Source: Clostridia bacterium
Lineage (GTDB): Bacteria > Bacillota > Clostridia > Christensenellales > UBA3700
NCBI GenBank assembly: GCA_029060065.1
Contig: JAIDUT010000065.1
Coordinates: 5,148-69,147 of the forward strand
Length of the DNA stretch: 64,000 nt
Direction: 5' to 3'
In this document: one piece after another, positions 4,570-24,988 of the stretch
Layout of the letters: each line of letters opens with the position of its first letter
Position numbering within the stretch: the first letter of the stretch is position 1
Made by a program: the position numbers and the translations under genes
The notes under the pieces: model-generated
Database searches by the model: none
What the model saw: the letters and a program-made list of their open reading frames with translations, nothing else
Told to the model about the DNA's origin: nothing

Positions 4570-4599
4570 TTGACTGGGATAAAAATAATAGGTTATAAT
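4570..4599 (+). promoter_or_regulatory. sigma-A type promoter (TTGACT-18-TATAAT) that would give a near-leaderless mRNA
   Basis: TTGACT at 4570-4575 and TATAAT at 4594-4599. The in-frame ATG at 4612 is only 12 nt past the -10 box. The ORF-track TTG start coincides with the -35 hexamer. Confidence 0.5.
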
Positions 4600-4611
4600 A
4601 TACCAGAATGT

Positions 4612-5289
4612 ATGAGAAGTTATAAAATAATTTCTACACTGCCCTCTAAACGCAAAAAAGTATATAAGGTGGAAAGTCAAGGCGAAGTCTGTATACTCAA
4701 AGAATATGAAAAAGTTGAGGATGCAGAAAAAGAAATGCAAATTGCCAATCAGGTAGCTTTGACAGGTTATGCGCCAAAGGTATTAGACCACCAAGATAAT
4801 TTGGTGATGTACGAATATATTGAGGGTGAGAATTTTTGCGAAGCATTCCGCCTTGCAACAATGACTGACGACGTTGAGACGATGGAGCTTTTGGCAACTC
4901 GACTGTCAATATTTTTACAAATCATATATTCTTTTACCGAAAAAGCTATTAAAGAGGTTGACTTCAATAATTACGTTGTTAAGGACGGCAGAGTAGTGGG
5001 GGTAGACTTTTTGAAAGTAGACGAAGGTATGCCGTATGAGGACGTGGCAAGCGCAATAGCTTTTGCGCTCATGAACAGCGCGGGACAGTATTACGATAGT
5101 TATTACTTTGTATATAGGTTGCTTGCTTGTTTTAAGCTCGATATGATGGACGTCATAAATGAAGTTAAGGCGAGATTAAAACGGCGCGCCAGTCAAGCGG
5201 GCACAAAAGACTATATTGACATAGATTTGCTTATGGAAGGGCTTGTCAATTTTGACAAAAAAGGCGTAGATTGGCGCAAGCTAATCTAG
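4612..5289 (+). CDS. Small protein-kinase-like / phosphotransferase-fold protein, function unknown
   Basis: Kinase-like landmarks: VCILKEY (beta3 Lys), EKEMQIAN (alphaC Glu), hinge MYEYIEG, catalytic-loop-like VDFNNYVV, DFG-like VGVDF. Start moved from the track's TTG 4570 to ATG 4612 (see promoter). The fold assignment is tentative. Confidence 0.45.
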   Translation: MRSYKIISTLPSKRKKVYKVESQGEVCILKEYEKVEDAEKEMQIANQVALTGYAPKVLDHQDNLVMYEYIEGENFCEAFRLATMTDDVETMELLATRLSIFLQIIYSFTEKAIKEVDFNNYVVKDGRVVGVDFLKVDEGMPYEDVASAIAFALMNSAGQYYDSYYFVYRLLACFKLDMMDVINEVKARLKRRASQAGTKDYIDIDLLMEGLVNFDKKGVDWRKLI

Positions 5290-5353: not shown

Positions 5354-5572
5354 ATGAAATTCGCAGAAAGATTAAAGGAACAAAGACTTATCAACGGTTA
5401 TAACCAAGAATATTTGGCTAAGTACATGCAAGTATCTCAAGTTTCTATCAGCAACTGGGAGAGAGGAGTAAAAGAACCAAGCTATCAAGCGTTGATAGAC
5501 CTTAGCAACTTATTTGGAAAGACGACGGATTATATGCTTGGTCTTAAGGACGACGACAGTAAGAGCATTTAG
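5354..5572 (+). CDS. XRE-family helix-turn-helix transcriptional regulator
   Basis: 72 aa with an HTH_3 pattern (QEYLAKYMQVSQVSISNWERG). RBS AGGAGG. Confidence 0.85.
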   Translation: MKFAERLKEQRLINGYNQEYLAKYMQVSQVSISNWERGVKEPSYQALIDLSNLFGKTTDYMLGLKDDDSKSI

Positions 5573-5603: not shown

Positions 5604-5639
5604 AAAAGGTATTAAGTAATGATTTGCTTAATACCTTTT
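5604..5639. terminator. Bidirectional hairpin terminator
   Basis: AAAAGGTATTAAG, a 10-nt loop, then CTTAATACCTTTT. A/T runs on both sides. Sits between convergent genes. Confidence 0.65.
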
Positions 5640-6353
5640 ATTATACAGTGCTTTAGCTTCGTCCGTCATATTACCGTCTTCTTCATAGACCACGAGTCTT
5701 TCTACGTCTAAAGAGTGCTTACCGCATTTTTTGCAAATAAGAACGAAGGTATCGGCTTTTTTGGATATTTTGGGGTATATCAGCGTTAAGGTCTTGGGTA
5801 TGAGTTTGTTTTGCGAGCAATACGTTATCACTTCAGCCATACGGCTTGTCTTGTGGATTATATAAAAAGCTCCGCCGAATTTAAGTATCTTTGACGCGCT
5901 AGCGATTATATCTTCAATAGTACATGCGCTTTCGTGTCTGGACAGCGCAATTTGAGGGCTTTCGCGTTTTTCACCGCTTTGGGCAGAGAAATACGGCGGA
6001 TTGCAGACCACGACTTGAACGCTTTCTTTGCCGAGTATATCGGGAGCGTTGGCTATATCGCCGTTGATAATTTCCACTTTATCTTGCAAGTTGTTGAGTT
6101 CGACGTTTTGCTTAGCAAGGTTTGCCACGTCGTTTTGCAACTCGATACCTATTACTTTTTTGCAAGGCGTCTTTGCGGTGAGAAGCAAAGATATTACGCC
6201 ACTGCCACAACCGAAATCGACTATAGTATCTCCGCTTTTACATCTTACGTTATTGGCAAGAAGCACGGCGTCGGAAGTAAAGCAATATCCGTCTGGGTCT
6301 TGAAGTATTTTAAGTCCGTTGCATTGCAAATCGTCAAGTCTTAGCTTTGTCAT
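5628..6353 (-). CDS. Class I SAM-dependent N6-adenine methyltransferase (tRNA m6A37 TrmN6/YfiC-like)
   Basis: SAM motif VDFGCGSG and catalytic NPPY (VVCNPPYF). 241 aa. Confidence 0.65.
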   Translation of the reverse strand: MTKLRLDDLQCNGLKILQDPDGYCFTSDAVLLANNVRCKSGDTIVDFGCGSGVISLLLTAKTPCKKVIGIELQNDVANLAKQNVELNNLQDKVEIINGDIANAPDILGKESVQVVVCNPPYFSAQSGEKRESPQIALSRHESACTIEDIIASASKILKFGGAFYIIHKTSRMAEVITYCSQNKLIPKTLTLIYPKISKKADTFVLICKKCGKHSLDVERLVVYEEDGNMTDEAKALYNKRY

Positions 6354-6465: not shown

Positions 6466-6621
6466 ATGAAATACGTTTGTAGCGTTTGCGGATGGGAATA
6501 TGATGAGGAAGTAGGAAGCGAAGAACTCGGCATAGCTCCAGGCACGAAGTGGGAAGATATCGAAGATGATTTTTCCTGTCCGTTATGCGGAGTAGGAAAA
6601 GACGATTTTTCGCAAGAATGA
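6466..6621 (+). CDS. Rubredoxin (51 aa)
   Basis: Below the ORF-track size cutoff. My translation is [51 protein letters not shown]. It carries the two rubredoxin CxxCG knuckles (CSVCG, CPLCG) and the conserved W/Y/F core. RBS AGGAGG at 6453-6458. Confidence 0.9.
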
Positions 6622-6658
6622 TTATTCCAAAGATAATTAAGTAATTGAAATCACAAAG

Positions 6659-6686
6659 ATACGGGCTTAAGAAGCTCGTATTTTTA
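6659..6686 (+). terminator. Rho-independent terminator after rubredoxin
   Basis: ATACGGGCTT-aag-AAGCTCGTAT (one G-U pair) followed by a T run. Confidence 0.6.
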
Positions 6687-6760
6687 TTTATTATGCTTCT
6701 TGACAATCAAAGGTCGCAAATGATAAACTTACATTATAAAGTATATTTCAAAGGAAAGAT

Positions 6761-9700
6761 ATGAAAGAAAAACTTGCAAAATTGACGGAGATGTTGCTAG
6801 ATACAGGCAAGCGCAACAATCTCATAAATTTCAGGGACAATAAAAGTAATACTTTAGAGGTGGTTTATCCCGATTTCAAAACGCTCTTTCACAAAGCTGA
6901 CGGCAACGTTGTCTTTGAAGTATTTGATCCTCAAATCGATGTGGACGAATTTGAGGACAGAATGAGCGAGGCAAAGCTCAAAGAGAAGTTAAAGGATAAG
7001 TCGCAGTACATAGATAATTACTGCAAGAAAATAAAAAAGGCAAATCAAATTCTTGTCTATAATAGGAACGTTACTCCGATCAAGGCAATGCGTAACGTTG
7101 AGAAGAGGGCAAAGACTGCCATTGAAGAAACTGGCGTAAACATTGCGTATATGGCGTTCGGCTTCATAACTTGGTATGAAGAACAATATCCCGATGTGAA
7201 ATACGATGCTCCGATATTGCTTGCTCCGATAAGTCTGTCCAAGTCGTCGAGCGTCGAACCGTATCGCGTAAAAGTTGCCGGCGACGATATTTTACTTAAT
7301 CCCACCTTTGCCTACAAGTTGCAAAGCGATTACAAGATAGACTTACCCGAATACGATGACGAGGGCATAGACGAATACTTGCAAAAAATCGAGGAAACGG
7401 TTAGCAAGCTCAAATGGCAAGTATCCAAGACGTGCAAGATAGGTCTTTTCTCTTTCTTGAAAATCAATATGTATATGGACCTAAAGGACAATGTCGACGC
7501 AGTATTGCAAAATACCAACGTCAGGTCTTTGTTGGGAGAGGGAAGAAACGCTACCTTTGAGCAGAAACTTCAAGAAGCGCAATTCAACGTAGTCGATGCC
7601 GACTCGTCGCAACTTCGCGCAATAGAAATGGCAAAGGCAGGCGAGAGTTTTGTTCTTCAAGGTCCTCCGGGGACAGGAAAGAGCCAAACTATTACCAATA
7701 TTATAGCCGAATGTATGGGCGACGGCAAAAAGGTGCTTTTCGTATCTGAGAAGCTCGCCGCACTCGACGTCGTATACAACAAACTTAAGCAAGCGGGACT
7801 TGAAGATTTTTGTTTGCAACTTCACTCGCATAAAGCAAATAAGCGAGATTTTATCCAAGAGCTATGCCGTACCATGCGCCTCAGCAAGAGCGGAGTATCT
7901 TCCAAGGCTAGCGAAGAGGAAGATAGATTAAATAAATCTCATATTATACTAGACAATTACGTAGACGTATTACACCGTCAAAACGACGTGATAGGCAAGT
8001 CGCTTTACGAACTTGTCGAAGAAGTTTGCGCGGACGAGGAAATGACAAGGCTGAATTTCTTTGTCGACGATATAGAAAATAAAGGCGAGAACTTTATTAA
8101 GTCCGCCGTTGATATGATAGATAGTTATGCGGAATACACTTCGTCAATAGGCTATGATTATAAGAACAATCCTTGGTACGGCTACATAAATGAAGATAAT
8201 TCGTATCAACAAAAATTCAAGACGCAATCGTCTTTGGAAAGCCTATCCAAAAAGATAGCGCAATGCAATACGTATGCGCAAAAACTCGCTAAAGAGTACG
8301 GCGTAGAGAATATCAAAACTTTGCAAGAACTCGGTTTGTACGCTAAACTGTTGGAGTTACTTGGAGCTTGTCAATATCTCACGGGAAATCTTCTTGACAA
8401 AAAGGCTTTGAGAAGCGTAATCGACAAGGTAATAAAATTACGTCCTATTGCCGACGAAATAAAGACTGTCGGGGATGCAATTAAGACAGACTACAACGAT
8501 GGAATATTCAAACTTGACGCTACGCAAGCAAGTAAAGTTTTGCAAAAGAACAGCGGTGCATTTGCAAGATTATTTTCAAAAGACTACAAGAGCCTTTTGA
8601 ACGAGATCAAAGCCGATAGCAAAAATGGCAAGGCAAGTTACAAAGACGCGTTGGTTTTGATAAAACTTTTGACGGAATATAACGACAAGATGTCGCAGTT
8701 TAGAAAGATAGAAGAGGGTGTCAAAGAAAAACTTTCGTCAAGCTACCACGGAGTAAATACCGACTGGCAGGAGCTTGACAAAGAACTTGCTACGCTGAGA
8801 GATTTGCTAGTCAAGATTGACGATTTCGGCAATCTTATCAATGCATTGGACGGAGAAGATTATTCTTACTACACAGAAGAATTTGCAAGTCTTGCAAAAG
8901 AAATGAGCGACTTACTCTCTAGCGTTGACGGCGAAGAAGTTGTCCAGTGTTTTGATAAAGACGTGTTCGATATTAATTCAACTCCATTTGAAGACGTTGA
9001 TAAAAAACTCAAAAGCTGTATACAGAACTTTGACACGCTTGATAGTTGGAGCGGATTTATTAGCGTATTGAGGTCCATGAACGAAAAGGACCTGACTAAG
9101 TATATTGACGTAGCGGTAAAGGAAGACGTTCTGCCTGCGGATATGTCGGCAGTATTCAAAAAGATATTCTACTCTCAATGGATAGACGTGATTATTCAAA
9201 GAGAAGAGTTTTTGCGCGTTCTGCCAAGAGTTGCGCACGACAAGACAGTGGGTATCTTTTGCGATAAGGATATACGCGGTTTTGAGATAAGCAAAGCCAA
9301 AGTAAGAGCTAAACTGTCGGCGTTGCGTCCCGACTTGAGCCTAGTTGCGCCGGGTAGCGCTGTAGCTAATCTTCTCAACGAGGGCGGTAAGAAGCGCAGA
9401 CAGAAGCCTATAAGGACTTTGATGTCGCAGATAAGAGAACTTGCGCAGAATCTTAAACCGTGCTTTTTGATGTCGCCTCTAAGCGTAAGCACGTTCTTGA
9501 CGCCCGACGTTAAGTTCGACGTAGTAGTATTCGACGAGGCTTCGCAGATATTCCCGCAAGACGCAATCGGCGCAATTTACAGAGGCAGACAGCTTATAGT
9601 CGTAGGCGACAGTAAGCAGATGCCACCTAGCAATTTCTTTACGTCGGTGGTAGAAGTTGACGACATGGAGGACGACGAGGACGTAAAGGACTTTGAATCC

Positions 9701-11329
9701 GTACTTGATTTGTGCTCCACCGTCATGCCTCAACTTAGGCTTAAATGGCACTATCGTAGCAGATACGAACAGCTTATAGAGTTTTCCAACAAGAATTTCT
9801 ATGAAGGCGACCTTGTTACTTTCCCTTCGTCCAAAATTGACAGAGAGGGCATAGGCGTAGATTTCAAGTATGTCGAGGGCGGTGTCTTTGACCATAAGAG
9901 CCGTACCAACAGAGCCGAGGCGGAGTATATTGTGGACTTAATCTTTGAGAATATAGAGAAGTATCCCGACAGAAGTCTTGGCGTAGTCGCGTTCAGTATA
10001 TCCCAACAAGACTTGATAGAACGGCTCTTGGCAAAGAGAAGATTGCAAGATAGCAAATACGAAGAGTTCTTTGCCGGCGACAAAGTCGAACCGTTCTTTA
10101 TCAAGAATTTGGAAACGGTGCAAGGCGACGAGAGAGACACCATTATTTTCAGCGTAGCATACGGTAAGGATAAAGACGGCAAGATGTCGCAAAACTTCGG
10201 ACCTATCAATAAAATGGGCGGAGAGCGCCGTCTTAACGTAGCTTTTACGAGAGCTAAGCTCAACGTTCAACTTGTAGCGTCGATTCACAGTTATGATATC
10301 AATCTCAAGAATTCCAACTCTTTGGGCGCAAGACTTCTAAGAGATTATATCGAGTTTGCGCAGAACGGTTCTACGGACTTTGTTCAAGATATGGCGGAAA
10401 GTGAAGATTGCCAAGCATTTGACTTTGAGATGCAAGTAGCCCAGTTCTTAAGGAGCAAGGGATACGAAGTCGACGTCAAGATAGGCGCATCGGCGGGAAG
10501 CGTGGATATAGGCGTCAAGGCGACGGGCGGTGACGACTACGTATTGGCGGTCGAGTGCGACGGCAGGTCATACAAGAGCGCAAAGAACACTCGCGACAGA
10601 GATAGACTTCGCGCAAGTATTTTGCAGAGAATGGGTTGGCATTATCACAGAGTATGGGCTATCGATTGGATAAAAAACAATAAGGACGAAAAGGACAGAC
10701 TTCTCAAAGCGCTGGAAGAAGCCTTGCAAGCTCCTGGTAACCACATCTCGCAGGAAGTTAATTCATTCGACGTTAATATCGACATGTTCGAGGAGGAGAA
10801 ACTGAGCGTAGACTTCAAATTCTCCGATTACGAAACAGCGGATATTCCGTCAGCCAAAAAGATAAGCAGGGGCGATTATCTCAAATACTTGCGATTGGTA
10901 CTGGAAAAGGAAGCTCCGCTATCCGAAGAACTCTTTTTGAAGAGGACGATACGCGACTTCGATAGAGAAAAACTTACCGACGCGGTATGGGAGAAATTCA
11001 ACAGACTTACTTCAAGATGCCAAAGCGAGGGTATATTCCGTAAGAGCGGATTTATGTATCTCAAAAACAGAGCAGTGGAGCTTCGCTTACCCGGCGGTAA
11101 CTTTGTCCGCGAAATAAAATATATCGCGCCTGAAGAACTTGCTGACGGAATGTATAAGGTTATTTGCAAGAATATCACTGTGGACAGAATGGGACTTTAT
11201 CGAATGCTTGCCAAGTTGCTCGGTTTTACCAAGTTGGGAGAGGCGATGATACGCAGGTTTGACGAAGCCTTGGCGCTCCTAAGAGGTAAAATAGATATAG
11301 AAGGCGAAGAACTTTCAATTCAGGGATAG
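6761..11329 (+). CDS. Large SF1 (Upf1-like) helicase: DUF4011-like N-terminus, split AAA_11/AAA_12 core, PD-(D/E)xK (DUF559/Vsr-like) nuclease domain and DUF3320-like C-terminus
   Basis: Walker A GPPGTGKSQT (about nt 7665). About 590 aa later come VVVFDEASQI, VVGDSKQMPP, TVQGDERDTIIFS and GERRLNVAFTRAK. Nuclease-like block VDIGV...LAVECDGRSYKSAKNTRDRDRLRASILQRMGWHYHRVWAIDW (about nt 10480-10680). Confidence 0.85.
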   Translation: MKEKLAKLTEMLLDTGKRNNLINFRDNKSNTLEVVYPDFKTLFHKADGNVVFEVFDPQIDVDEFEDRMSEAKLKEKLKDKSQYIDNYCKKIKKANQILVYNRNVTPIKAMRNVEKRAKTAIEETGVNIAYMAFGFITWYEEQYPDVKYDAPILLAPISLSKSSSVEPYRVKVAGDDILLNPTFAYKLQSDYKIDLPEYDDEGIDEYLQKIEETVSKLKWQVSKTCKIGLFSFLKINMYMDLKDNVDAVLQNTNVRSLLGEGRNATFEQKLQEAQFNVVDADSSQLRAIEMAKAGESFVLQGPPGTGKSQTITNIIAECMGDGKKVLFVSEKLAALDVVYNKLKQAGLEDFCLQLHSHKANKRDFIQELCRTMRLSKSGVSSKASEEEDRLNKSHIILDNYVDVLHRQNDVIGKSLYELVEEVCADEEMTRLNFFVDDIENKGENFIKSAVDMIDSYAEYTSSIGYDYKNNPWYGYINEDNSYQQKFKTQSSLESLSKKIAQCNTYAQKLAKEYGVENIKTLQELGLYAKLLELLGACQYLTGNLLDKKALRSVIDKVIKLRPIADEIKTVGDAIKTDYNDGIFKLDATQASKVLQKNSGAFARLFSKDYKSLLNEIKADSKNGKASYKDALVLIKLLTEYNDKMSQFRKIEEGVKEKLSSSYHGVNTDWQELDKELATLRDLLVKIDDFGNLINALDGEDYSYYTEEFASLAKEMSDLLSSVDGEEVVQCFDKDVFDINSTPFEDVDKKLKSCIQNFDTLDSWSGFISVLRSMNEKDLTKYIDVAVKEDVLPADMSAVFKKIFYSQWIDVIIQREEFLRVLPRVAHDKTVGIFCDKDIRGFEISKAKVRAKLSALRPDLSLVAPGSAVANLLNEGGKKRRQKPIRTLMSQIRELAQNLKPCFLMSPLSVSTFLTPDVKFDVVVFDEASQIFPQDAIGAIYRGRQLIVVGDSKQMPPSNFFTSVVEVDDMEDDEDVKDFESVLDLCSTVMPQLRLKWHYRSRYEQLIEFSNKNFYEGDLVTFPSSKIDREGIGVDFKYVEGGVFDHKSRTNRAEAEYIVDLIFENIEKYPDRSLGVVAFSISQQDLIERLLAKRRLQDSKYEEFFAGDKVEPFFIKNLETVQGDERDTIIFSVAYGKDKDGKMSQNFGPINKMGGERRLNVAFTRAKLNVQLVASIHSYDINLKNSNSLGARLLRDYIEFAQNGSTDFVQDMAESEDCQAFDFEMQVAQFLRSKGYEVDVKIGASAGSVDIGVKATGGDDYVLAVECDGRSYKSAKNTRDRDRLRASILQRMGWHYHRVWAIDWIKNNKDEKDRLLKALEEALQAPGNHISQEVNSFDVNIDMFEEEKLSVDFKFSDYETADIPSAKKISRGDYLKYLRLVLEKEAPLSEELFLKRTIRDFDREKLTDAVWEKFNRLTSRCQSEGIFRKSGFMYLKNRAVELRLPGGNFVREIKYIAPEELADGMYKVICKNITVDRMGLYRMLAKLLGFTKLGEAMIRRFDEALALLRGKIDIEGEELSIQG

Positions 11330-11357
11330 GAATAAGGTTTGCATAAAATTCACTTTT

Positions 11358-11375
11358 TGCGAATAAATATTCAAT
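11358..11375. promoter_or_regulatory. Candidate ARG box (ArgR/AhrC operator)
   Basis: TGCGAATAAATATTCAAT matches the 18-nt ARG-box consensus TNTGAATWWWWATTCANW at 17 of 18 positions. A weaker half-match (TGCATAAAATTCA) lies 5 nt upstream. Confidence 0.4.
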
Positions 11376-11493
11376 TATACGCTTGAAATTGCATAATATG
11401 CATAAATATACATATAAATGAAAATTTATGCAAAAATTATCGATATAAAGCATAAAAATAGCGAAAAAAACAAAAATTTGTGTATAAAAATAC

Positions 11494-11522
11494 TTGCATG
11501 CTTAACAAATCGGTGTTAGAAT
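11494..11522 (+). promoter_or_regulatory. Promoter (TTGCAT-17-TAGAAT) for the amino-acid ABC operon
   Basis: Hexamers at 11494-11499 and 11517-11522. Confidence 0.45.
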
Positions 11523-11555
11523 AAGAATACGATAAATTTATAAGAGGTTTATATT

Positions 11556-14429: not shown

Positions 14430-17400
14430 ATGAAATTAACTAAAGGACGCAAGGTTACAGCGTTTGTCACGTTGTCAATTATGCTCGTCGCAGTAGTTAC
14501 TACGGCATGCTTATTGGCGGTGCCTATTGGGGGGGTATCACCCAATAATACATATGAGGCACCGGATTTTGTAGCGCCGATAAGCACGGCAATCGGTGAT
14601 GATAATCTTAAAATTGCTAAGGCAAGTTATACTTCGTCTAACTCATCGATAGTTTATATAGATTTTTATAAACAAAGCGGTAATTTAATTAAAACTTATG
14701 ACTATGGTTATGCGAGAATGCTTATCCCCAATACCATCTATATAGATAAGTCGGAGAACTTGTCAGACGCGCAGTATTATATTGCTTACGATACTTACGC
14801 AAAGTCAAATAATCACGACGGAGATAGGGTAGAACTCTTTGATAACCTCTTTGGTCTTTTTACTGGTACAACAAAACCCGGTGAAAACGATGACGTAAAT
14901 ACTATGCATAGAATGTTTGACGGTTACGGAACAGGTATTAGAGAGGCTATATTTGGGTCGCCGGATTCGGTATTGTCGTGGACGGCTACAGGACCATCAG
15001 GAGTAAAAACTAACAATTCAGTAACCGAAATAGAAGCTAGAGATAAGCGCATTACCACTATAGTAACACTTAGCGGAAAACCGGCAGATAAGTATCAAGC
15101 AGGTGGCGCGGATGCCGATTATAGTACGACAGGTAAAACAGGCACCTTTAGACATGGAGATAATTCATATACCTTAGGTTTCACAAAATATAAGAATTTT
15201 GGTAGTTGGCCTACCGTCATGACTCAAGATTATTTCGGTGATTGGGAGCATAACGGTGGCGCTAAAGGCTCCGGCGCTTTTAACGGCGGTACATCTGCCT
15301 CTACGGGTATAGTCGTACCTTCTTTTGAAGATGACAATATGTACGTTAAGTATCCTGAAATTAACGTATGTATTTACGATAAGTCCGAGTTATTCGCTAC
15401 AATCAAAAAATTCGAAAATAAAGCTTTACTCTCCGAATTGAACGGAGGAAATAATTCCGCTTACGATAGAGCTCAAGCGTGGCTTATTGCTGAAGGTAAA
15501 AAAGCATTTGAGGATGCAAAGTCTGTTTTCACGACGAGAGAAGTTTCTCAAGAAGTTATAAACAGCGCTACTGCAAAACTCAATGAATATATATTTGAAC
15601 TTGAAAGAGTTCAAGAATCCGAGATTCAGAATATGTCAAAGATTTATGACGATAGTACAATCCGCGCAGAAGATATTAAGACTATTGAAGGCTGGGAAAG
15701 ATTTGATTCTAAGTATTTCAATATCAAATTTTTGTTCGTAGTTGAGAATGGAGATAGCACTACATATAACGAGGTAGAGTATATCAACAAAGTAGGCACT
15801 TACGTTATTCAAGTTTCTCCTAAGAAAGAAGCTATTATGATTAACGGTGCGCAGTGGAAATTCTGTTGGACCGGCGACGGCGATCAGTATGAGTATATTT
15901 CAATAGGCTCTTTGATGGTCGGCAATGTTAAGTTGGTCGTCTCTAACGTAATGGCTACTGTAGAATTGCCTTACAAGAATTCCAACTACAGTATTACTTT
16001 TGCATCGATAGCGCCGGACGTAAACTATAACGGTAGCGGAACTGCTTCCGGTGGCGAAAAAAATAAGTATTTCCCTAATTTGTATGATGGCAACGTAGCT
16101 AAAGTTAAGTTATCTTTAGACGGAACCAACTATAATAGTGAATTGGTTCAAATGCAAAACATAGGAGATACGATAGTATATTACGAAGTCTCTTCCGACC
16201 CTAACTACGATCCTGTTTACGGTCAATTTACCGTATCAATCAAGCCGGCTGAGTTGACTTTGTCTTTTAGCGAAGTTTCGCAGATTTACGGCGATGCCAA
16301 GATGGATGCCGGTGACATCGTTGCTACAGGCAAGGTTTCGTGCGAAGCCAACTCCACGGAAGATACTACTTGGGCAAACGCGCTACTTAGTCAAATCTTT
16401 ACTTTGCGTGTCGGCGCGTCAGGCACTGTTTATAATGGCAAAGAATACTTGGATGCCGGCAAATACGATATTCTCGCTGTTGTCAACACAGAATGGCAGA
16501 ATAGAGTATCGGCTACCGTAAAATACAAAGATGACAACAACATCGGCGCATATGTAGTAAATGCTAAACCTGTTCATATCACTTGGTCTAATACCTCGTC
16601 TTACTACGACGGTCAGACCGGTCATAGATCGGTTGCGAACGTCGCTACGAGCGAATTGGTGGCTAAAGACCAGGCAAACAACTTGACGCTTACGCCGACG
16701 GTAAGCCTCAAAGACGGCGGTTCGGTAGTTTCAGCCGGCACTTATGACGTAAAAGTAGATTTTCATAATAGTAATTATACTTGCACTGACGAAGAGCTTG
16801 CGAACGGCGCATTTACAATCAATCCTCGTCCTATCTCGGTGACTTTATTCGACCGCAATAGAACGTACGGAGAAGGCGATTCTGCAAGCGTAACTTGGAG
16901 TAATTATCTTAAAAATTTCGATTCTACTATCGACGTTGACGGAGTATTTTCAACTGTTTTAGCTAATGGTTTGAACGATGGCAAAGCTCCTCTCGTAGAC
17001 CTTGCGTCCTCTATATTTAAGTTGAGTATCGGTACTACTGCGGACGACTATACTTCGGGTGACAGCGCTGATCCGACATTTGTAGCCTCTGATAGATATT
17101 TCAAGGTTAACGAAAATACGGGTTATGTTTTGACCATAGAACTTATCGACAGTGACAACAGTAATTACGTATTGGTAAACAGCGTTAGCGCTAAACTCTA
17201 CGTTCATCCTGCTAAAATTCTATTTACAGAAACCAGCTTGGAGTCTAAGTCTTACAACGGCGCAGAGCAAACGATTGCCATCGACAATGATAAGTTGAAA
17301 GCGAGAATGAGCGGTTACGAAAAAGCCAACTATGACACGCTTTTTGCCAACGGCGCGATCAAGGCTGAGTACAAGGTAGACGCTCCGTCTGCTTATGCAA

Positions 17401-20400
17401 CAAGCGGATATACTACCGATTTGAAGTTAAAACAAGCTACTACTTATGAAATAAGCTATAAGATTACTGCTCCTAACCATGAGGTTAGAGAGGGTAGCGT
17501 TAGAATACAAATCAATGCCGTAGACGTCTATATTGATTTTACTCCTTATGACGGCGCTCGTTACGGCGATGCAATACCTGATTCCGATACGTTGAAGAGC
17601 TTACTCAAAGTCAAGTTCTATTCATCGGCTGATAAGGCAAGCGAATTTGCATTTGCTGACGAGATATCTGTCAGATTGCTCGGCGGTGGTGGCGGTGACG
17701 ACACGCTTTACGGCGACAAAGTAACACCGGGTTCTTACAGCGCGTCTTACGTTCGTGACGCAGTTGTTGAAAATTACAATGTTCGCTATACGAGCAGAAA
17801 TGGCGCGGACAGCAATATTAACGTATATACTATAAAGCAAAAGGAATTGCATATTATATGGAAACAAACAGGCGCAGGCTGGGAGAGCGACGGCTTGACA
17901 TTTACATACAACGGTCACGCGCTTTCGGTAGAACCTGTTGCTGATCCTGCAGATATAGTATCGGGAGATTCCATCACTCCTGCTGAACCTACTTGGGATA
18001 AATCGGGCGGTAATGTAGGAACTTATAAGGCTACGACTTCTCTGTCTACGCAACTTAACAGAGAAAAATATACTATAGTCAACCCAACGCAGGAATTTAC
18101 TATAATTCCAAGAACTATTAAAGTTCGAATCAAGAACCAAACGGCTACTTACGGCAATGCTAGCACTGTACCGTTGGGAACTTCCTTAATCAATCCTGAC
18201 AGCGCTGACGCGCTTTGGGGCTACGATAGCGGATCGCTTCAGTTTGTAAACGGTGAGTATACCAACTTCAAACTTACTTCCGACGCGCAAAATCCGACAG
18301 GCGAAGCAAAATACGTTGATGTAGGCGATTATGATATTATTGTTGAGGCTGTGACCAAAGGTAGCCAAGCAGATCAAAACTACACCTTTGAAATCGTAAA
18401 AGACGGCGTAGAGGGCGAGAGTGGTTTCAATGCTACGTTTAGCATTACTCGCGCTACTATTCACTACACCGGTAGACAGTTCAATATCAAATATGACTTC
18501 GCGGATACGTCTAATAATACTGAAAAAAATTACGTTACTCAAAATCAAGTAAGAGCAAGAATATCTACGACTGTAGGTACTCCTACAAGCGAATTTAATA
18601 TTGAGATGACTAATTTGGTTCCTTGGACCGCAGAACTTGATGGCGTGGACGGTACGTACGGTGATACTCTTGGTTGGAATGAAATTGAGGAGACAGCCCC
18701 TGCGACAGCCGTTGGTCTATATTATCTATTTGTTAAGATCACGCACGAAACCAACTATGAGACGTTCTACTCCAAGATAGAAGTAAATATCCAAACCGAT
18801 TGGGTATCCATTACTATCATTGGCGACGGTATCAAGGCTAGTTACGGTGAAACGACGCATTCTTCCTCTGCAATTTTCCAAGAGTTGAAGGAACAAATCA
18901 CTTATATTGGCGGAATTGTGAATACTGAAACAAATCAAGAAGCTGACCGTGACTACGCTTTGAAAAAACTCGAAGAATACGTAAACAACAATCAGATTGA
19001 GTTCTTCGTAGGTATGGGCGATACGATTACCCAAATGACGACCAATGGTGACTTTGGCGACTATTCAATCTTTATTAAAGTGTTGGATAGCAGTCTGAAT
19101 ACTTATTTCCGTTTCTTGGACGAGAAGAACGAGTCGGGTACTGATAAACCTACGACTAATATCAACAAATATCACGTTGGTAAGAGAGTCGTCCAAATGA
19201 ATTGGGGCAAGGACGGAAGCATGGACGAAGTTTACGGCGCTCACAGCGACTCGTTGACCGATCCAAGCGCAAGTCACATCTATAGCGTTAAAAATCCAAT
19301 GCCCGGAGATAACGTTCGTGTAACCGTAACGTATCTTAAGAAAGAAAATGGAGTATGGGTACCATTACCTCAAGGCGAGCACACGCTTGAAGTAGGCGAG
19401 TATCTTGCAAGAGTTACCGCAGTATCTCACGACAATTACGAGGTACCGACTGGAGACGGAAACTGGCTTGAGCAAAAGTTCGAAATAACCAAAAAGTCGT
19501 TGACTATTAAGTTAATGGATCGCAATGATTTGAGTTATGGTGCTCCAAATGCTACTAAAGACAATATAAATAATTTCCTCAATGTGCAAGTTGCAGGAAT
19601 CACGCGTTATAACATACTTAACGGTGATACCTTTGCATATGACGATACTGTTACAGACGTGTTTAGGTTCGCTCTCGACTTTACGCTAGAAAGCGGTTAT
19701 ACCTACTTGCACGCAGGCGATTATACAATTACCTACGATAAGAGCTTTGTCAATCCTAACTATGACATTACGTTCCAAGAGGGTACGTTTAAGATAAATA
19801 AAGCTTCGGCTGACAACGTGCACTACACTCAAGCTCAACTCAATAACGTGACGTACAACGGCAAGAACTTCTCGCTCATTCAAGATGATATTTTAGACCG
19901 TATAACGTTGATTGGCGACGGCGTTAAATTGCTCAACGCATATCAAGCAATTAAGTTCTATTGCAGATTGCAAGGCGATACGGACTTCACTGAGAACCTC
20001 AGCGTAAAGGACGCAAAGACTTACACAGTTGACATAAAGATAGAAGCTCCGGATCACGAAGTGCAAACCATTACTGGAATCAACTTCACGATTCAGCAAG
20101 CTGTCGTTAAAATTTCTATGACCCAAACCGATAAGACTTACGGCGATACCCTCGCTGATATGCTTAACAAGGCTGGTTTGAGTTCTACAAGCACTTTGAA
20201 CGATTGGCTGAAGAAGAAGTGTAATATCAAACTCAGCTACACAGGTACGATTGAAGGCATCAACGAAGACTTTGAATTCATAGTAATTGACAGCGCTGTC
20301 GATCCTGATAATCTTACAGGCGTGACCCAACTTGTGCCTGGTACTAGTCACAACGTTGGCACGTACAGAGTATATGTCAATATTGATAAGCTCAACGGCA

Positions 20401-22919: not shown

Positions 22920-24988
22920 TGATAACCTTGATAAGTGCGCTTAACCTTACGGCAAAAATCGGCATAAGCATTGCAGTTTTCGTAGTGCTTATCGCCGTAG
23001 AAGTGTTGGCATTGGTTATGCTTGTTAAATGGAAAAAGAATTATAAGCAAGCTCTCATTAAGAAAGCAAAGGAAGATAAGAGAGATGCAGAGTTGGCGAA
23101 TAGCAAGCCTGTGACGGCTATAGATTTGTCACAAGAGCATGCAGAAGTAAATACTGTCGAAAATACGGCAGTAGAAGCGTCCGAAGATAAGCAAGACGAA
23201 AAAGCTGAGGATAAAGCTGTAGCAAATGAAACTGAAAACCAAGTTGTATCTAAAGAGCAAGATAAGGTTGTTGAAGAAGAAACTTCGACAAATGAGAAAG
23301 AAAGCGAAGAAGTAGTCTCTGAAGAAAAGCAAGACAGCGTAGCTGACGCTACAAAGGCATTTGCTTTCGCTCCGCTTTTCATGTGGGGCGCAACCACAAC
23401 AGCTATGACTTTGAGAGGTTTCTTGTACGTATTGATAGGTATAGCGGTAGCGCTTGCAGTAGCTGTATTTGCTACGGCAGTAATATTCTCTCAAAATCTA
23501 AAGCATGGTTTAGACGAGCTTGAAGAGGACGTGCCGGCTAAAGACCCGACTATAGTTAAAAAGCCTGAAGAAGAGCCAATGAAAGAAACTGAAGAACCTG
23601 TAGCTGAAGAAAAAGTATCGCAAGAACCTGTAGTTGAGGAAAAACCTGTCGAAGAAGAAATCGCAGAAGAGGAACTCACCGCAGAAGCTGTTGAAGAAGT
23701 TCAAGAAGAGCAACCTGCAGAAGAAGAGGCTGTTGCTGAAGAAGAGCCGATAGTAGCGGAAGCAGAGCCGGCTGTTGCTGAAGAAGAGCCTGTTGTGGAA
23801 GAGCAACCTGTTGTTGAGGAGAAGCCTAAGCCCGCTCCTGTCAAGAGAGAGCCTAAACCAAGAGAGAGAGCTGTCGTTATTGACAATGTTTCATACATGA
23901 TGAAAGACGATAGATTCCTGTTCAATCCTACGGACGACGGTTGGTACATACTTCTCACCAAGACTTTTACGGCAAAACTTATTCAGTCTGACGAGTACGT
24001 CAAAGATTATTACACTGAGTTGAAGAATGAATTGCTTTCTTACAACAAAGTTCATGCAAGAATGAGCAAAAAGCGTGAGAGTTTCAACTTCGGTCGTACG
24101 TGCTTGGCGCGTCTGTCGATAAGAGGTAAGACGCTTAGATTACACCTTGCTCTCGACGCTAACGATTATGCAGAAACCAAGTATATAGTTGAAGATACAT
24201 CGCAGACCAAGTCGCTTGCAGATACTCCGCTTATGTATAGGATCAAGAATGATCGCCGTCTTAAGTATGCAAAAGAGTTGATTGCTACGCTCATGGAAAA
24301 AGTAGGAGCGGTAAAACAAGAGATTGAGCCTGTCAACTATACGGCAATGTATCCTTACGAAGAGACCGAGCCATTGATTGAAAGAGATCTTATCACTCGT
24401 AGATTTGTCAAGGGTAAGGTTCCGGAGGATAAGGGATTTGACTTTGCGCAAAAGACCTTTAAGGCAAAACTTATTCAGTCTGACGATGCTGTCAAAGAGT
24501 ACTATTCTAAGGTAAAGAATCACTTGCTTTCTTACAAGAAGATTCATGATAGATTGAGCAAAAAGCGCGAGACCTATCGCTTTGGTAGAGTTTGCGTTGC
24601 CCGCATGGCAATTAGAGGAAAGACCTTAAGACTGTACCTTGCGCTTAATCCGGCAGACTACGTAGATACTAAGTACATAGTAGAGGACTTCTCGCACGTT
24701 AAGTCAGTCGCAGACACTCCTCTTGCAATCAAGCTCAAAAACCCGCGCCGTCTAAAGTACGCAATGGAATTGATTGACGCGACTATGGTAAATATGGGCG
24801 TAGTTCATAAGCGTGATATTATTGATACCGACTATACGTCAGATTTGGCTTACGAGAGTACTGAGGAATTGATGGAGAAGGGACTTGTCACCAACGTACA
24901 CGTGAAGGGTAACTCTTTCGTAGCTCAACACTTCTCGTTCAAAGAAAAAGACGCTGAGGACGAAGTAGCTTCTGACGAGGATAAATAA
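22919..24988 (+). CDS. Membrane protein (689 aa) with acidic and PE-rich linkers and two tandem copies of an unrecognised, roughly 130-aa basic domain
   Basis: Start overlaps the upstream stop (TAATG). RBS GAAGGAGG. TM1 near aa 15-37 and a hydrophobic hairpin near aa 160-205. E/P/V-rich linker from about nt 23560 to 23880. Duplicated block F.AKLIQSD...YY..(L/V)KN.LLSY.K.H.R.SKKRE.(F/Y).FGR.C.AR..IRGKTLRL.LAL...DY..TKYIVED.S..KS.ADTPL..K.KN.RRLKYA.ELI. Confidence 0.7.
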   Translation: MITLISALNLTAKIGISIAVFVVLIAVEVLALVMLVKWKKNYKQALIKKAKEDKRDAELANSKPVTAIDLSQEHAEVNTVENTAVEASEDKQDEKAEDKAVANETENQVVSKEQDKVVEEETSTNEKESEEVVSEEKQDSVADATKAFAFAPLFMWGATTTAMTLRGFLYVLIGIAVALAVAVFATAVIFSQNLKHGLDELEEDVPAKDPTIVKKPEEEPMKETEEPVAEEKVSQEPVVEEKPVEEEIAEEELTAEAVEEVQEEQPAEEEAVAEEEPIVAEAEPAVAEEEPVVEEQPVVEEKPKPAPVKREPKPRERAVVIDNVSYMMKDDRFLFNPTDDGWYILLTKTFTAKLIQSDEYVKDYYTELKNELLSYNKVHARMSKKRESFNFGRTCLARLSIRGKTLRLHLALDANDYAETKYIVEDTSQTKSLADTPLMYRIKNDRRLKYAKELIATLMEKVGAVKQEIEPVNYTAMYPYEETEPLIERDLITRRFVKGKVPEDKGFDFAQKTFKAKLIQSDDAVKEYYSKVKNHLLSYKKIHDRLSKKRETYRFGRVCVARMAIRGKTLRLYLALNPADYVDTKYIVEDFSHVKSVADTPLAIKLKNPRRLKYAMELIDATMVNMGVVHKRDIIDTDYTSDLAYESTEELMEKGLVTNVHVKGNSFVAQHFSFKEKDAEDEVASDEDK

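What the first reader, a model, noticed from the sequence alone, without database searches (positions are those of the whole stretch)
6761..11329. Stand-alone 1,522-aa helicase-nuclease fusion (DUF4011-like N-terminus, Upf1-like SF1 helicase, PD-(D/E)xK DUF559/Vsr-like domain, DUF3320-like tail): candidate single-gene defence module
- **Isolation:** the gene has its own promoter-like element (TTGACA at about 6700) and follows the rubredoxin terminator. Its neighbours are functionally unrelated (rubredoxin, amino-acid ABC importer).
- **Helicase:** the motifs are intact (GPPGTGKSQT, DEASQ, GDSKQMPP, QGDERD, VAFTRAK). A roughly 590-aa, largely helical insertion separates Walker A from Walker B.
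- **Nuclease:** the block LAVECDG...RDRDR...GW...RVW is also intact.
- **Precedent:** a helicase plus Vsr-like endonuclease in one polypeptide is the composition I recall for the single-gene anti-phage system named Hhe. I cannot verify homology without a search.
- **Open question:** the family is widespread but mechanistically uncharacterised.
Basis: partly seen in the sequence, partly recalled or inferred. Interest (0 to 1): 0.55.

Follow-up and report, generated by a model that had tools for sequence, protein, structure and literature searches.

The report
Chromosomal helicase-nuclease, candidate phage defence gene
This intact 1,522-residue helicase-nuclease fusion belongs to a very large known family whose relatives block phages, but in this gut Clostridia lineage it behaves like an inherited chromosomal gene and not like a mobile defence-island gene, so it is an ordinary, untested member of that family.

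Summary
**Observation.** It is correct. ORF 6761-11329 (+) encodes 1,522 aa with every quoted motif. Pfam finds DUF4011, an AAA_11/AAA_12 Upf1-like helicase and the MTES_1575 nuclease. The gene has a promoter-like site and follows the rubredoxin terminator.

**Family.**
- PADLOC's candidate model PDC-S37 matches end to end (1,339 bits).
- The validated families fail their curated cut-offs: Hhe 820 of 2,000 bits and ProA 1,200 of 1,500 bits.
- It is therefore an Hhe relative, not Hhe. NCBI already holds this exact protein as "DUF4011 domain-containing protein".

**Genomic behaviour.**
- The organism is a Christensenellales gut bacterium.
- The gene stays beside the same amino-acid ABC operon in relatives down to 61% identity, and behind rubredoxin down to 66%.
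- I found no empty site, and composition is native.
- dN/dS is about 0.08.
- No defence system appears in 11 contexts, and IMG/VR holds no relatives.

**Models.** The nuclease has a Vsr/DUF559-like fold and the tail is a tandem winged helix. The DUF4011 module has no solved structural relative.

**Verdict.** It is an ATP-driven translocase-nuclease. Defence is plausible by homology (about 50%), and housekeeping genome maintenance is a live rival. It is a new member of a known kind, of low-to-moderate interest.

The parts
6655..6685 (+). Terminator-like hairpin plus T-run that ends the rubredoxin gene (6466-6621)
   Evidence: 14-pair stem, then a T-run; sequence; rubredoxin matches Pfam PF00301 at 76 bits.
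6700..6729 (+). Promoter-like site: TTGACA, 18 nt, TAAACT with a TG extension; a ribosome-binding site AAAGGAAAG precedes the ATG at 6761
   Evidence: 10 of 12 consensus matches. This is a consensus match only; transcription was not shown.
6761..11329 (+). Whole gene: 1,522-aa DUF4011 / SF1B helicase / Vsr-like nuclease / winged-helix protein, identical to NCBI MDE6472284.1
   Evidence: It is 100% identical to P0121. dN/dS is 0.074-0.082.
6761..7600 (+). N-terminal module (aa 1-280): DUF4011 (12-187) plus a linker; invariant D14, G16, K17, N19, E53, E123, G125, W138, D240, D279
   Evidence: Pfam 130 bits. Invariant residues come from 120 sequences. The AF2 model has pLDDT 86.6 and pTM 0.81. 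Foldseek finds no PDB match (best E 0.018, TM 0.10). dN/dS is 0.02-0.04.
7601..8185 (+). Helicase domain 1A, first part (aa 281-475), with Walker A GPPGTGKSQT at 301-310
   Evidence: AAA_11 and AAA_19. PDB sequence matches are IGHMBP2, ZNFX1 and others. Walker A is invariant.
8186..9460 (+). Family-specific insertion (aa 476-900) inside domain 1A; it is the fastest-evolving part
   Evidence: No Pfam family. It is 34% identical across the family, against 73-80% for the helicase core. dN/dS is 0.14-0.16. No structural model was made.
9461..10300 (+). Rest of helicase domain 1A and domain 2A (aa 901-1180): DEASQ 925, GDSKQMPP 949, QGDERD 1121, TRAK 1163
   Evidence: AAA_12. PDB sequence matches are Upf1, Sen1, Nam7 and DNA2. 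The motifs are invariant.
10424..10720 (+). PD-(D/E)xK nuclease of the Vsr/DUF559 type (aa 1222-1320): E1265, D1267, Y1271, R1278-D-R-D-R1282; the consensus His at 1272 is Lys here
   Evidence: MTES_1575 at 99.8 bits. The model resembles I-Bth0305I (3r3p, TM 0.75) and NGO0050 (3hrl, TM 0.71). Column counts are. dN/dS is 0.006-0.07.
10721..11326 (+). C-terminal tail (aa 1321-1522): tandem winged-helix domains, the DUF3320-equivalent region
   Evidence: The model is confident (pLDDT 93-98 in 10-residue blocks over aa 1351-1520). Foldseek finds winged-helix proteins such as Rpc5 tWHD2, MukE, cullin WHB and E2F-DP. The tail has no Pfam hit of its own, but homologs hit PF11784. Anantharaman 2013 describes DUF3320 as two wHTH domains.

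Best explanation
**What it is**
- The gene encodes an intact, expressed-looking, single-polypeptide nucleic-acid surveillance enzyme.
- It belongs to the DUF4011 / Upf1-like SF1B helicase / Vsr-like PD-(D/E)xK nuclease / tandem winged-helix family.
- PADLOC lists this family as candidate PDC-S37. It is sister to the validated anti-phage proteins Hhe and ProA.

**Likely mechanism (inferred, not shown)**
1. The winged-helix tail and the DUF4011 module engage DNA.
2. The SF1B motor hydrolyses ATP and translocates 5'->3' along one strand.
3. The Vsr-like domain cuts the tracked or displaced DNA.
4. The fast-evolving 425-aa insertion is the best candidate for target discrimination or autoinhibition.

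**Likely role**
- The most likely role is restriction of invading DNA (phage or plasmid), as in Hhe.
- In this Christensenellales lineage the gene is a vertically inherited, constitutive chromosomal gene, not a mobile defence-island cargo.
For: **Architecture and active sites (shown)**
- All helicase and nuclease motifs are invariant in 120 full-length homologs.
- PDB sequence matches are restricted to Upf1, IGHMBP2, Sen1, DNA2 and ZNFX1 cores.
- The nuclease model superposes on I-Bth0305I and NGO0050, and the tail on winged-helix proteins.

**Family placement (shown)**
- PDC-S37 matches full length at 1,338.7 bits.
- Hhe and ProA are the next best hits.

**Selection and defence precedent**
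- dN/dS is 0.074-0.082, with the nuclease at 0.006-0.07.
- Hhe protects E. coli, and its nuclease glutamate is required.
- A phage gene counteracts Hhe.
- Distant family members sit on 560 plasmid records.

**Hints that the gene is dispensable**
- Truncated or split alleles occur in a related species cluster.
- The helicase diverges faster than its flanks, for example 61% against 76-86% in L007.
Against: - No experiment exists for this subfamily. PDC-S37 is only a candidate, and I found no paper on it or on ProA.
- Curated cut-offs for Hhe and ProA are not met.
- Synteny is conserved: next to the same ABC operon down to 61% identity, and after rubredoxin down to 66%.
- All 10 contigs with the identical rubredoxin carry the gene.
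- Composition is native: GC 0.434 against 0.429 +/- 0.021 for window genes.
- Flanks in 11 contexts are housekeeping or transport genes. PADLOC hits there are generic only: ABC ATPases, one NPPY methyltransferase, an XRE regulator and one kinase.
- IMG/VR holds no relatives, and phage records hold almost none.
- The family's consensus His after Y1271 is Lys in this protein.
Confidence: 0.55

Rival explanations
1. Housekeeping genome maintenance. The protein is a lineage-core helicase-nuclease, working like Dna2, Sen1 or AddAB. It would process the cell's own DNA (stalled forks, R-loops, breaks or incoming transforming DNA) and would not act as an immune gene.
For: - Vertical inheritance with conserved synteny across 61-100% identity.
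- Housekeeping neighbourhoods in every sampled context, for example TsaE/TsaD/Ddl/Obg, RecR/YbaB/EF-G and SbcC.
- Native composition.
- Purifying selection comparable to the flanks.
- Thousands of same-length homologs in gut Clostridia.
- In P. aeruginosa a large DUF4011 gene is a core gene (PMC10250203).
- The nearest solved helicase cores are Upf1, Sen1, DNA2 and IGHMBP2.
Against: - The only members with a tested or curated function are anti-phage: Hhe by experiment, ProA by its NCBIfam name only.
- Distant members are common on plasmids.
- Truncated or split alleles occur in a related species, suggesting the gene is dispensable.
- Deep synteny is absent: contexts differ completely at about 50% identity, and the gene is not next to the orthologous ABC operon at 77-78% permease identity.
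- It evolves faster than its flanks.
Confidence: 0.3
2. Restriction-modification-like pair. The divergently transcribed NPPY methyltransferase (5628-6353, minus strand) would modify host DNA, and the helicase-nuclease would restrict unmodified DNA.
For: - The methyltransferase is kept two genes upstream in the window and in L001-L006 and L011-L014.
- It carries NPPY.
- It hits PADLOC mad2 (85 bits) and several Type II methyltransferase models.
Against: - It is only 241 aa, with no target-recognition domain.
- It aligns over its full length to tRNA TrmN (74 bits) and equally well to PrmC/HemK protein methyltransferases (75 bits). All are below their cut-offs.
- The mad2 match covers only the catalytic core.
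- It is separated from the helicase by the rubredoxin gene and a terminator.
- It is absent next to the helicase in L007/L008 and in all homologs of about 50% identity.
Confidence: 0.05
3. Recently acquired mobile or prophage-borne cargo gene, as in a classic defence island.
For: - Distant relatives occur on conjugative and mobilisable plasmids.
- The Aristaeella plasmid copy sits beside kinase, FHA, phosphatase and WYL genes.
Against: - No integrase, transposase, tRNA or repeat boundary flanks the gene.
- Composition is native.
- Synteny is shared by at least six diverged lineages.
- IMG/VR holds no relatives.
Confidence: 0.03

Closest known systems
PADLOC candidate system PDC-S37 (PDLC05009, PADLOC-DB v2.0.0)
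   Same: - The match is a single end-to-end stretch: aa 2-1511 against profile 7-1538 of 1550, at 1,338.7 bits.
- The length class is the same (about 1,500-1,650 aa), and so is the domain order.
- Homologs of 49% and 61% identity score alike, at 1,411 and 1,323 bits.
   Different: - There is no sequence-level difference of note.
- PDC-S37 is a computational candidate only, with no paper found.
- Its model is broad: 1,227-1,485 bits for five diverse members, including an archaeal plasmid protein. Membership therefore says little about function.
Hhe (HheA), the single-gene anti-phage helicase plus Vsr endonuclease of E. coli
   Same: - Both have DUF4011 at the N-terminus, an SF1 helicase, an MTES_1575/Vsr-like nuclease with the catalytic ExDG glutamate, and a DUF3320-type tail. 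Both are single genes.
- Hhe is active against lambda, T3, T7 and PhiV-1, and a nuclease point mutant is dead.
   Different: - Hhe profiles are 1,797-1,911 positions long, about 300-400 aa longer than this protein.
- The NCBIfam score is 820 against a 2,000-bit cut-off. The PADLOC Hhe model aligns well only over aa 750-1320.
- The insertion region is not shared.
- E. coli Hhe is an accessory gene found in only some E. coli genomes. This gene is syntenic and vertically inherited.
Anti-phage protein ProA (NCBIfam NF058533.1)
   Same: It is the best NCBIfam hit: 1,200 bits, with aa 2-1490 aligned to profile positions 357-1902 of 1903.
   Different: - The score is below the 1,500-bit cut-off.
- The first 356 or so profile positions have no counterpart in this protein.
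- Five other diverse family members also score 1,015-1,192 bits, so the score reflects superfamily membership and not ProA identity.
- I could not find the ProA publication.
Eukaryotic Upf1-like SF1B helicases and helicase-nucleases (Upf1, IGHMBP2, Sen1, DNA2, ZNFX1)
   Same: - The motor core is the same superfamily, with motifs I, II, III, V and VI conserved. These are the only solved relatives by sequence.
- DNA2 also couples a PD-(D/E)xK nuclease to the motor.
   Different: - The similarity is weak (E 2e-9 to 3e-4) and limited to the RecA-like domains.
- DUF4011, the 425-aa insertion, the Vsr-type nuclease and the winged-helix tail have no counterpart there.

Membership tests
PDC-S37 (PADLOC candidate) | Full-length match to HMM PDLC05009, as a single-gene system | tested here: met
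   1,338.7 bits, E = 0, aa 2-1511 against profile 7-1538 of 1550. PADLOC's own E-value and coverage thresholds were not available to me, but coverage is about 99% on both sides.
PDC-S37 (PADLOC candidate) | Association with defence islands, which I recall (not checked here) is the basis for a PADLOC phage-defence-candidate listing | tested here: not met
   The 107 neighbouring ORFs from 11 close-subfamily contexts gave only generic PADLOC hits: ABC ATPases to mad3/AriA, an NPPY methyltransferase to mad2, an XRE regulator, and one Ser/Thr kinase. Pfam-named flanks are housekeeping or transport genes. The test is qualitative and had no matched control.
Hhe | Score at or above the curated NCBIfam equivalog cut-off (NF042953.1, 2,000 bits) | tested here: not met
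   819.9 bits in three stretches; the best stretch is aa 728-1363.
Hhe | Domain order: DUF4011, SF1 helicase, Vsr-like nuclease, DUF3320 | tested here: met
   Pfam finds DUF4011, AAA_11/AAA_12 and MTES_1575. The tail is DUF3320-equivalent through homologs and by fold.
Hhe | Catalytic glutamate of the nuclease (E1731 in E. coli Hhe) is present | tested here: inconclusive
   E1265 in the ECDG motif is invariant in 120 of 120 sequences. I did not align an E. coli Hhe sequence, so equivalence to E1731 is inferred from the motif. The neighbouring consensus His (91 of 120) is Lys here.
Hhe | Protection against phage when expressed | not testable with these tools
   This needs plaque assays.
ProA (NCBIfam NF058533.1) | Score at or above the curated equivalog cut-off (1,500 bits), with coverage of the whole profile | tested here: not met
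   1,200 bits. Profile positions 1-356 are unmatched. Other diverse family members score the same. NCBI's own annotation of the identical protein is 'DUF4011 domain-containing protein'.
Upf1-like SF1B helicases | Conserved motifs I, II, III, V and VI in two RecA-like domains (AAA_11 plus AAA_12) | tested here: met
   The 5'->3' polarity is inferred from the superfamily and was not tested.
Vsr/DUF559-like PD-(D/E)xK nucleases | Fold and ExDG...RDRxR signature | tested here: met
   MTES_1575 scores 99.8 bits against a 38.2-bit cut-off. Foldseek gives probability 1.00, TM 0.75 to 3r3p and TM 0.71 to 3hrl. The E-values are weak (about 0.01) because the query model is multi-domain.
DUF3320 (PF11784) | Pfam gathering score of 25 bits | tested here: not met
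   The protein's own tail has no hit at E <= 0.1. Homologs P0012 and P0054 pass at 27.8 and 25.4 bits, and P0045 is just below at 24.8 bits. The fold is a tandem winged helix, as DUF3320 was described.

The most novel reading that the evidence does not exclude
**Reading.** In Christensenellales and related gut Clostridia, this subfamily has been domesticated as a constitutive, vertically inherited 'core' nucleic-acid surveillance enzyme. It would act either as always-on innate immunity outside any defence island, or as a housekeeping genome-maintenance factor derived from an immune ancestor.

**Sensor.** Its DUF4011 N-terminal module would serve as the sensor. The model is confident and has no solved structural relative, and its acidic and basic residues are invariant.
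Probability: 0.25. Interest if true: 0.55.

Novelty: new member of a known kind. Interest (0 to 1): 0.28.

Why it matters
**Why it could matter**
- The DUF4011 helicase-nuclease family is very large. The N-terminal module alone finds 3,362 clusters (at 50% identity) with E <= 1e-10.
- Two branches are named as anti-phage: Hhe by experiment, ProA only by its NCBIfam name.
- I found no mechanistic or structural work on the family in the library searched.
- A branch that is stably chromosomal and syntenic in abundant gut commensals would be a convenient place to ask two questions:
  - Do such enzymes act as constitutive immunity or as genome-maintenance factors?
  - What does the DUF4011 fold do?

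**Why this locus adds little**
- The gene is a typical family member and is already deposited and annotated.
- Nothing in its sequence departs from the family pattern.

Tried and rejected
1. **Exact look-ups.** The helicase and the adjacent binding protein returned nothing, although an identical protein (P0121) is in the collection. The 51-aa rubredoxin worked instead.
2. **Literature.** Searches for ProA and PDC-S37 found nothing relevant. Only six papers mention DUF4011.
3. **Empty-site test.** I scanned species-representative genomes with the flanking permease. Only one representative (L021) belongs to the syntenic clade. The next orthologs (77-78% identity) lack all other flanks too, so this is not a clean presence/absence test.
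4. **Restriction-modification idea.** I rejected pairing with the neighbouring NPPY methyltransferase.
5. **Apparent MADS/Mokosh/PD-T4-6 neighbours.** These resolved into ABC transporter ATPases, the methyltransferase core and one kinase.
6. **Apparent 1,371-aa 'truncated alleles' in the P0011 cluster.** These are an unrelated neighbouring protein, so a clustering artefact.
7. **Viral collections.** Both scans found no relatives. The BFVD fold search gave one weak hit to an 'AAA domain protein'.
8. **RNA and downstream gene remnants.** Rfam found nothing in the region, and the window holds no remnant of the GNAT gene.

Full report

Yes.

- ORF 6761-11329 on the + strand is the only long ORF there. 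It translates to 1,522 residues without interruption.
- The rubredoxin gene (6466-6621; Pfam Rubredoxin 76 bits) is followed by a 14-pair hairpin with a T-run at 6655-6685. A promoter-like site follows at 6700-6729: TTGACA, 18 nt, TAAACT, with a TG extension.
- Pfam confirms four of the five proposed domains: DUF4011 at 12-187 (130 bits), AAA_11 at 281-475, AAA_12 at 990-1174 and MTES_1575 at 1222-1318 (99.8 bits).
- The fifth domain, DUF3320, is not found in this protein's own tail, even at E 0.1.
  - Three homologs of about 50% identity hit PF11784 at 24.8-27.8 bits at the equivalent position.
- Walker A and Walker B are 614 residues apart. About 425 of these residues (476-900) match no family.

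**2. Structure and conservation**

*N-terminal module (aa 1-280).*
- An AlphaFold2 model built on 120 sequences is confident (pLDDT 86.6, pTM 0.81).
- It has no meaningful match among solved structures (best Foldseek E 0.018, TM 0.10).
- Among predicted viral structures there is only one weak hit.

*C-terminal region (aa 1181-1522).*
- The model has pLDDT 86.8.
- The nuclease superposes on the I-Bth0305I catalytic domain (3r3p, TM 0.75) and on the DUF559-type protein NGO0050 (3hrl, TM 0.71).
- The tail matches tandem winged-helix proteins such as Rpc5 tWHD2, MukE, cullin WHB and E2F-DP.
- This fits the description of DUF3320 as two wHTH domains (PMC3710099).

*Sequence-level relatives in the PDB.*
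- Only Upf1-like motor cores match: IGHMBP2, Sen1, Upf1/Nam7, DNA2 and ZNFX1.

*Conservation across 119 full-length homologs.*
- 317 positions are at least 99% conserved. They include all helicase motifs, the DTGKRN loop of DUF4011, and the nuclease residues E1265, D1267, Y1271 and the RDRDR block.
- One departure: the consensus His after Y1271 (91 of 120 sequences) is Lys in this protein and its closest relatives.
- The insertion (34% identity) and the tail (40%) vary most. The motor is 73-80% identical.

**3. Which family?**

- PADLOC's candidate model PDC-S37 matches end to end at 1,338.7 bits. PADLOC's Hhe model matches only in part (564 bits, best stretch aa 750-1320).
- NCBIfam's curated models for validated systems both fail.
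  - ProA scores 1,200 bits against a 1,500-bit cut-off, and its first 356 or so profile positions are unmatched.
  - Hhe scores 820 bits against a 2,000-bit cut-off.
- Controls show that these sub-threshold scores are generic to the superfamily.
  - Five diverse relatives score 1,015-1,192 bits on ProA.
  - Five diverse relatives score 1,227-1,485 bits on PDC-S37, including a Haloferax plasmid protein only 30% identical to this one.
- The protein is therefore a typical member of the broad PDC-S37 family. It is a relative of Hhe and ProA, not a member of either.
- NCBI holds the identical protein as MDE6472284.1, 'DUF4011 domain-containing protein [Clostridia bacterium]'.
- The family is very large.
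  - 7,918 of the 8,000 scored candidates have E <= 1e-10. All but one of the top 120 are full-length proteins of 1,514-1,570 aa; the exception, P0002, is a 1,275-aa partial.
  - The DUF4011 module alone finds 3,362 50%-identity clusters at E <= 1e-10. In most listed hits it sits at or near the N-terminus, with full-length proteins clustering near 1,500-1,650 and 1,820-2,200 aa.

**4. Genomic behaviour**

*Organism.*
- It is a Christensenellales gut bacterium. The closest species representative is an uncultured Christensenella sp..

*Synteny.*
- The order is methyltransferase (minus strand), rubredoxin, helicase-nuclease, then the SBP_bac_3/permease/ATPase operon.
- This order holds in the window, L001 (helicase 87% identical), L002-L005 and L021 (79%), and L011 (80%). 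L012 (79%) shows the upstream part but ends before the ABC operon. L006 (66%) keeps the order with a flavodoxin gene inserted.
- L007/L008 (61%) keep the downstream half only.

*Presence or absence.*
- All 10 contigs that encode the identical rubredoxin carry the helicase gene directly after it. I found no empty site.

*Composition and selection.*
- GC is 0.434 against 0.429 +/- 0.021 for window genes. GC3 is 0.498 against 0.455 +/- 0.034.
- dN/dS is 0.074-0.082, within the range of the flanks (0.02-0.12).
- By domain, the nuclease is at 0.006-0.07, DUF4011 at 0.02-0.04 and the insertion at 0.14-0.16.
- dS is near saturation, so these values are rough.
- The helicase does diverge faster than its flanks. 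Against L007 it is 61% identical, while the flanking proteins are 76-86% identical.

*More distant contexts.*
- At about 50% identity the contexts are unrelated to each other, but all are housekeeping:
  - TsaE, TsaD, a Mur ligase, Ddl and Obg;
  - SbcC, MatE and a TetR/ABC set;
  - EF-G, GpsA, RecR and YbaB;
  - polysaccharide synthesis genes, BacA, GalK and the CCA-adding enzyme.

*Defence neighbours.*
- A PADLOC scan of 107 neighbouring ORFs from 11 contexts gave only generic hits.
- I traced these to ABC transporter ATPases (mad3, AriA), the NPPY methyltransferase core (mad2), an XRE regulator and one Ser/Thr kinase.

*Mobility.*
- IMG/VR holds no relatives, and GenBank phage records hold four weak ones.
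- Distant relatives (36% identity or less) occur on 560 plasmid records.
- Relatives are found in metagenomes of all biomes.

*Dispensability.*
- In a related species cluster there are truncated or split alleles: a 575-aa form on 14 contigs, and a 1,344 + 166 aa pair on one contig.
- This hints that the gene is dispensable, but I did not check it against reads.

**5. Interpretation**

*Shown.*
- The gene is intact and under purifying selection in every domain.
- It has the architecture DUF4011, Upf1-like SF1B motor, Vsr-like nuclease, tandem winged helix.

*Inferred.*
- ATP-driven 5'->3' translocation is coupled to DNA cleavage.
- The variable insertion and tail provide recognition or regulation.

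*Role.*
- By homology to Hhe, and to ProA as named by NCBIfam, restriction of invading DNA is the most likely role.
- Core placement does not exclude immunity. P. aeruginosa's large DUF4011 gene is also a core gene, and it flanks a defence hotspot.
- I therefore give defence about 0.55 and a housekeeping genome-maintenance role about 0.3.
- An R-M-like pairing with the neighbouring methyltransferase is unlikely. That protein is 241 aa, resembles TrmN/PrmC over its full length, is separated by rubredoxin and a terminator, and is absent in more distant relatives.

**6. Novelty and verdict**

- The family is known as a candidate, and NCBI already holds this exact protein.
- It is an unremarkable member, except for its core-like behaviour in gut Clostridia and for the fact, true of the whole family, that DUF4011 has no solved structural relative.
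- Classification: new member of a known kind. Interest: 0.28.

Noticed in passing
window 14430-22919 and 22919-24988: Two consecutive giant ORFs (2,829 and 689 aa) match no Pfam or NCBIfam family (the 2,829-aa one was checked against Pfam only, the 689-aa one against NCBIfam only). The first diverges very fast between relatives: 61% identity to L001 and 33% to L002, where flanking genes are 87-97% identical. It is probably a variable surface protein.
   Followed up: partly
L002:13444-13935, L006:14566-15072, L007:14591-15085 (absent after window 11329): In most relatives a GNAT acetyltransferase gene starts 3-19 nt after the helicase-nuclease stop codon, which looks like an operon. The window, L001 and L011 lack it, and the window holds no remnant.
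   Followed up: partly
window 5628-6353 (minus strand): This 241-aa NPPY methyltransferase is kept two genes upstream of the helicase in the close relatives whose contigs reach that far (L001-L006, L011-L014, L021). It resembles TrmN and PrmC (74-75 bits, below their cut-offs). It also hits the catalytic core of PADLOC mad2 (85 bits). I judged it a tRNA/protein methyltransferase, not an R-M partner.
   Followed up: yes
window 4570-5289 and 5354-5572: A 239-aa ORF has no family hit here, but its homologs carry a weak RIO1 kinase hit and it has kinase-like motifs. It is followed by a 72-aa XRE/RstR-like HTH regulator. Both are conserved in synteny upstream of the locus.
   Followed up: no
window 11330-11555: The AT-rich intergenic region between the helicase gene and the ABC operon holds repeated TTGCATAA/TTATGCAA boxes and an inverted repeat (11399-11413 / 11418-11432). 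These are conserved in L001 and L011. It is probably an operator for the amino-acid ABC operon. The scan found no terminator after the helicase gene.
   Followed up: partly
L101:14389-16152; L117:16423-17496; two further loci of set B: Ser/Thr protein kinases lie next to or near DUF4011 helicase-nuclease genes in 4 of 27 sampled contexts. On the Aristaeella lactis plasmid the kinase gene overlaps the helicase stop and is followed by FHA, AAA ATPase and phosphatase genes. This may be a multi-gene variant of the family.
   Followed up: partly
proteins P0152, P0159, P0160 (cluster of P0033, Anaerocaecibacter muris-like): Truncated (575 aa, on 14 contigs) and split (1,344 + 166 aa on one contig) alleles of a 49%-identical homolog coexist with full-length alleles. 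They are either real inactivation or assembly frameshifts.
   Followed up: partly
window aa 1272 (nt 10574-10576): The family's consensus His in ECDGxxYH (91 of 120 sequences) is Lys in this protein and in 10 other sequences, and Arg in 16. The effect on catalysis is unknown.
   Followed up: partly
tool behaviour: The exact-sequence look-up reported the window protein as absent, although an identical sequence (P0121, MDE6472284.1, on a 79.8-kb contig) is in the same collection. The P0011 cluster also lists unrelated 1,371-aa proteins as members.
   Followed up: yes
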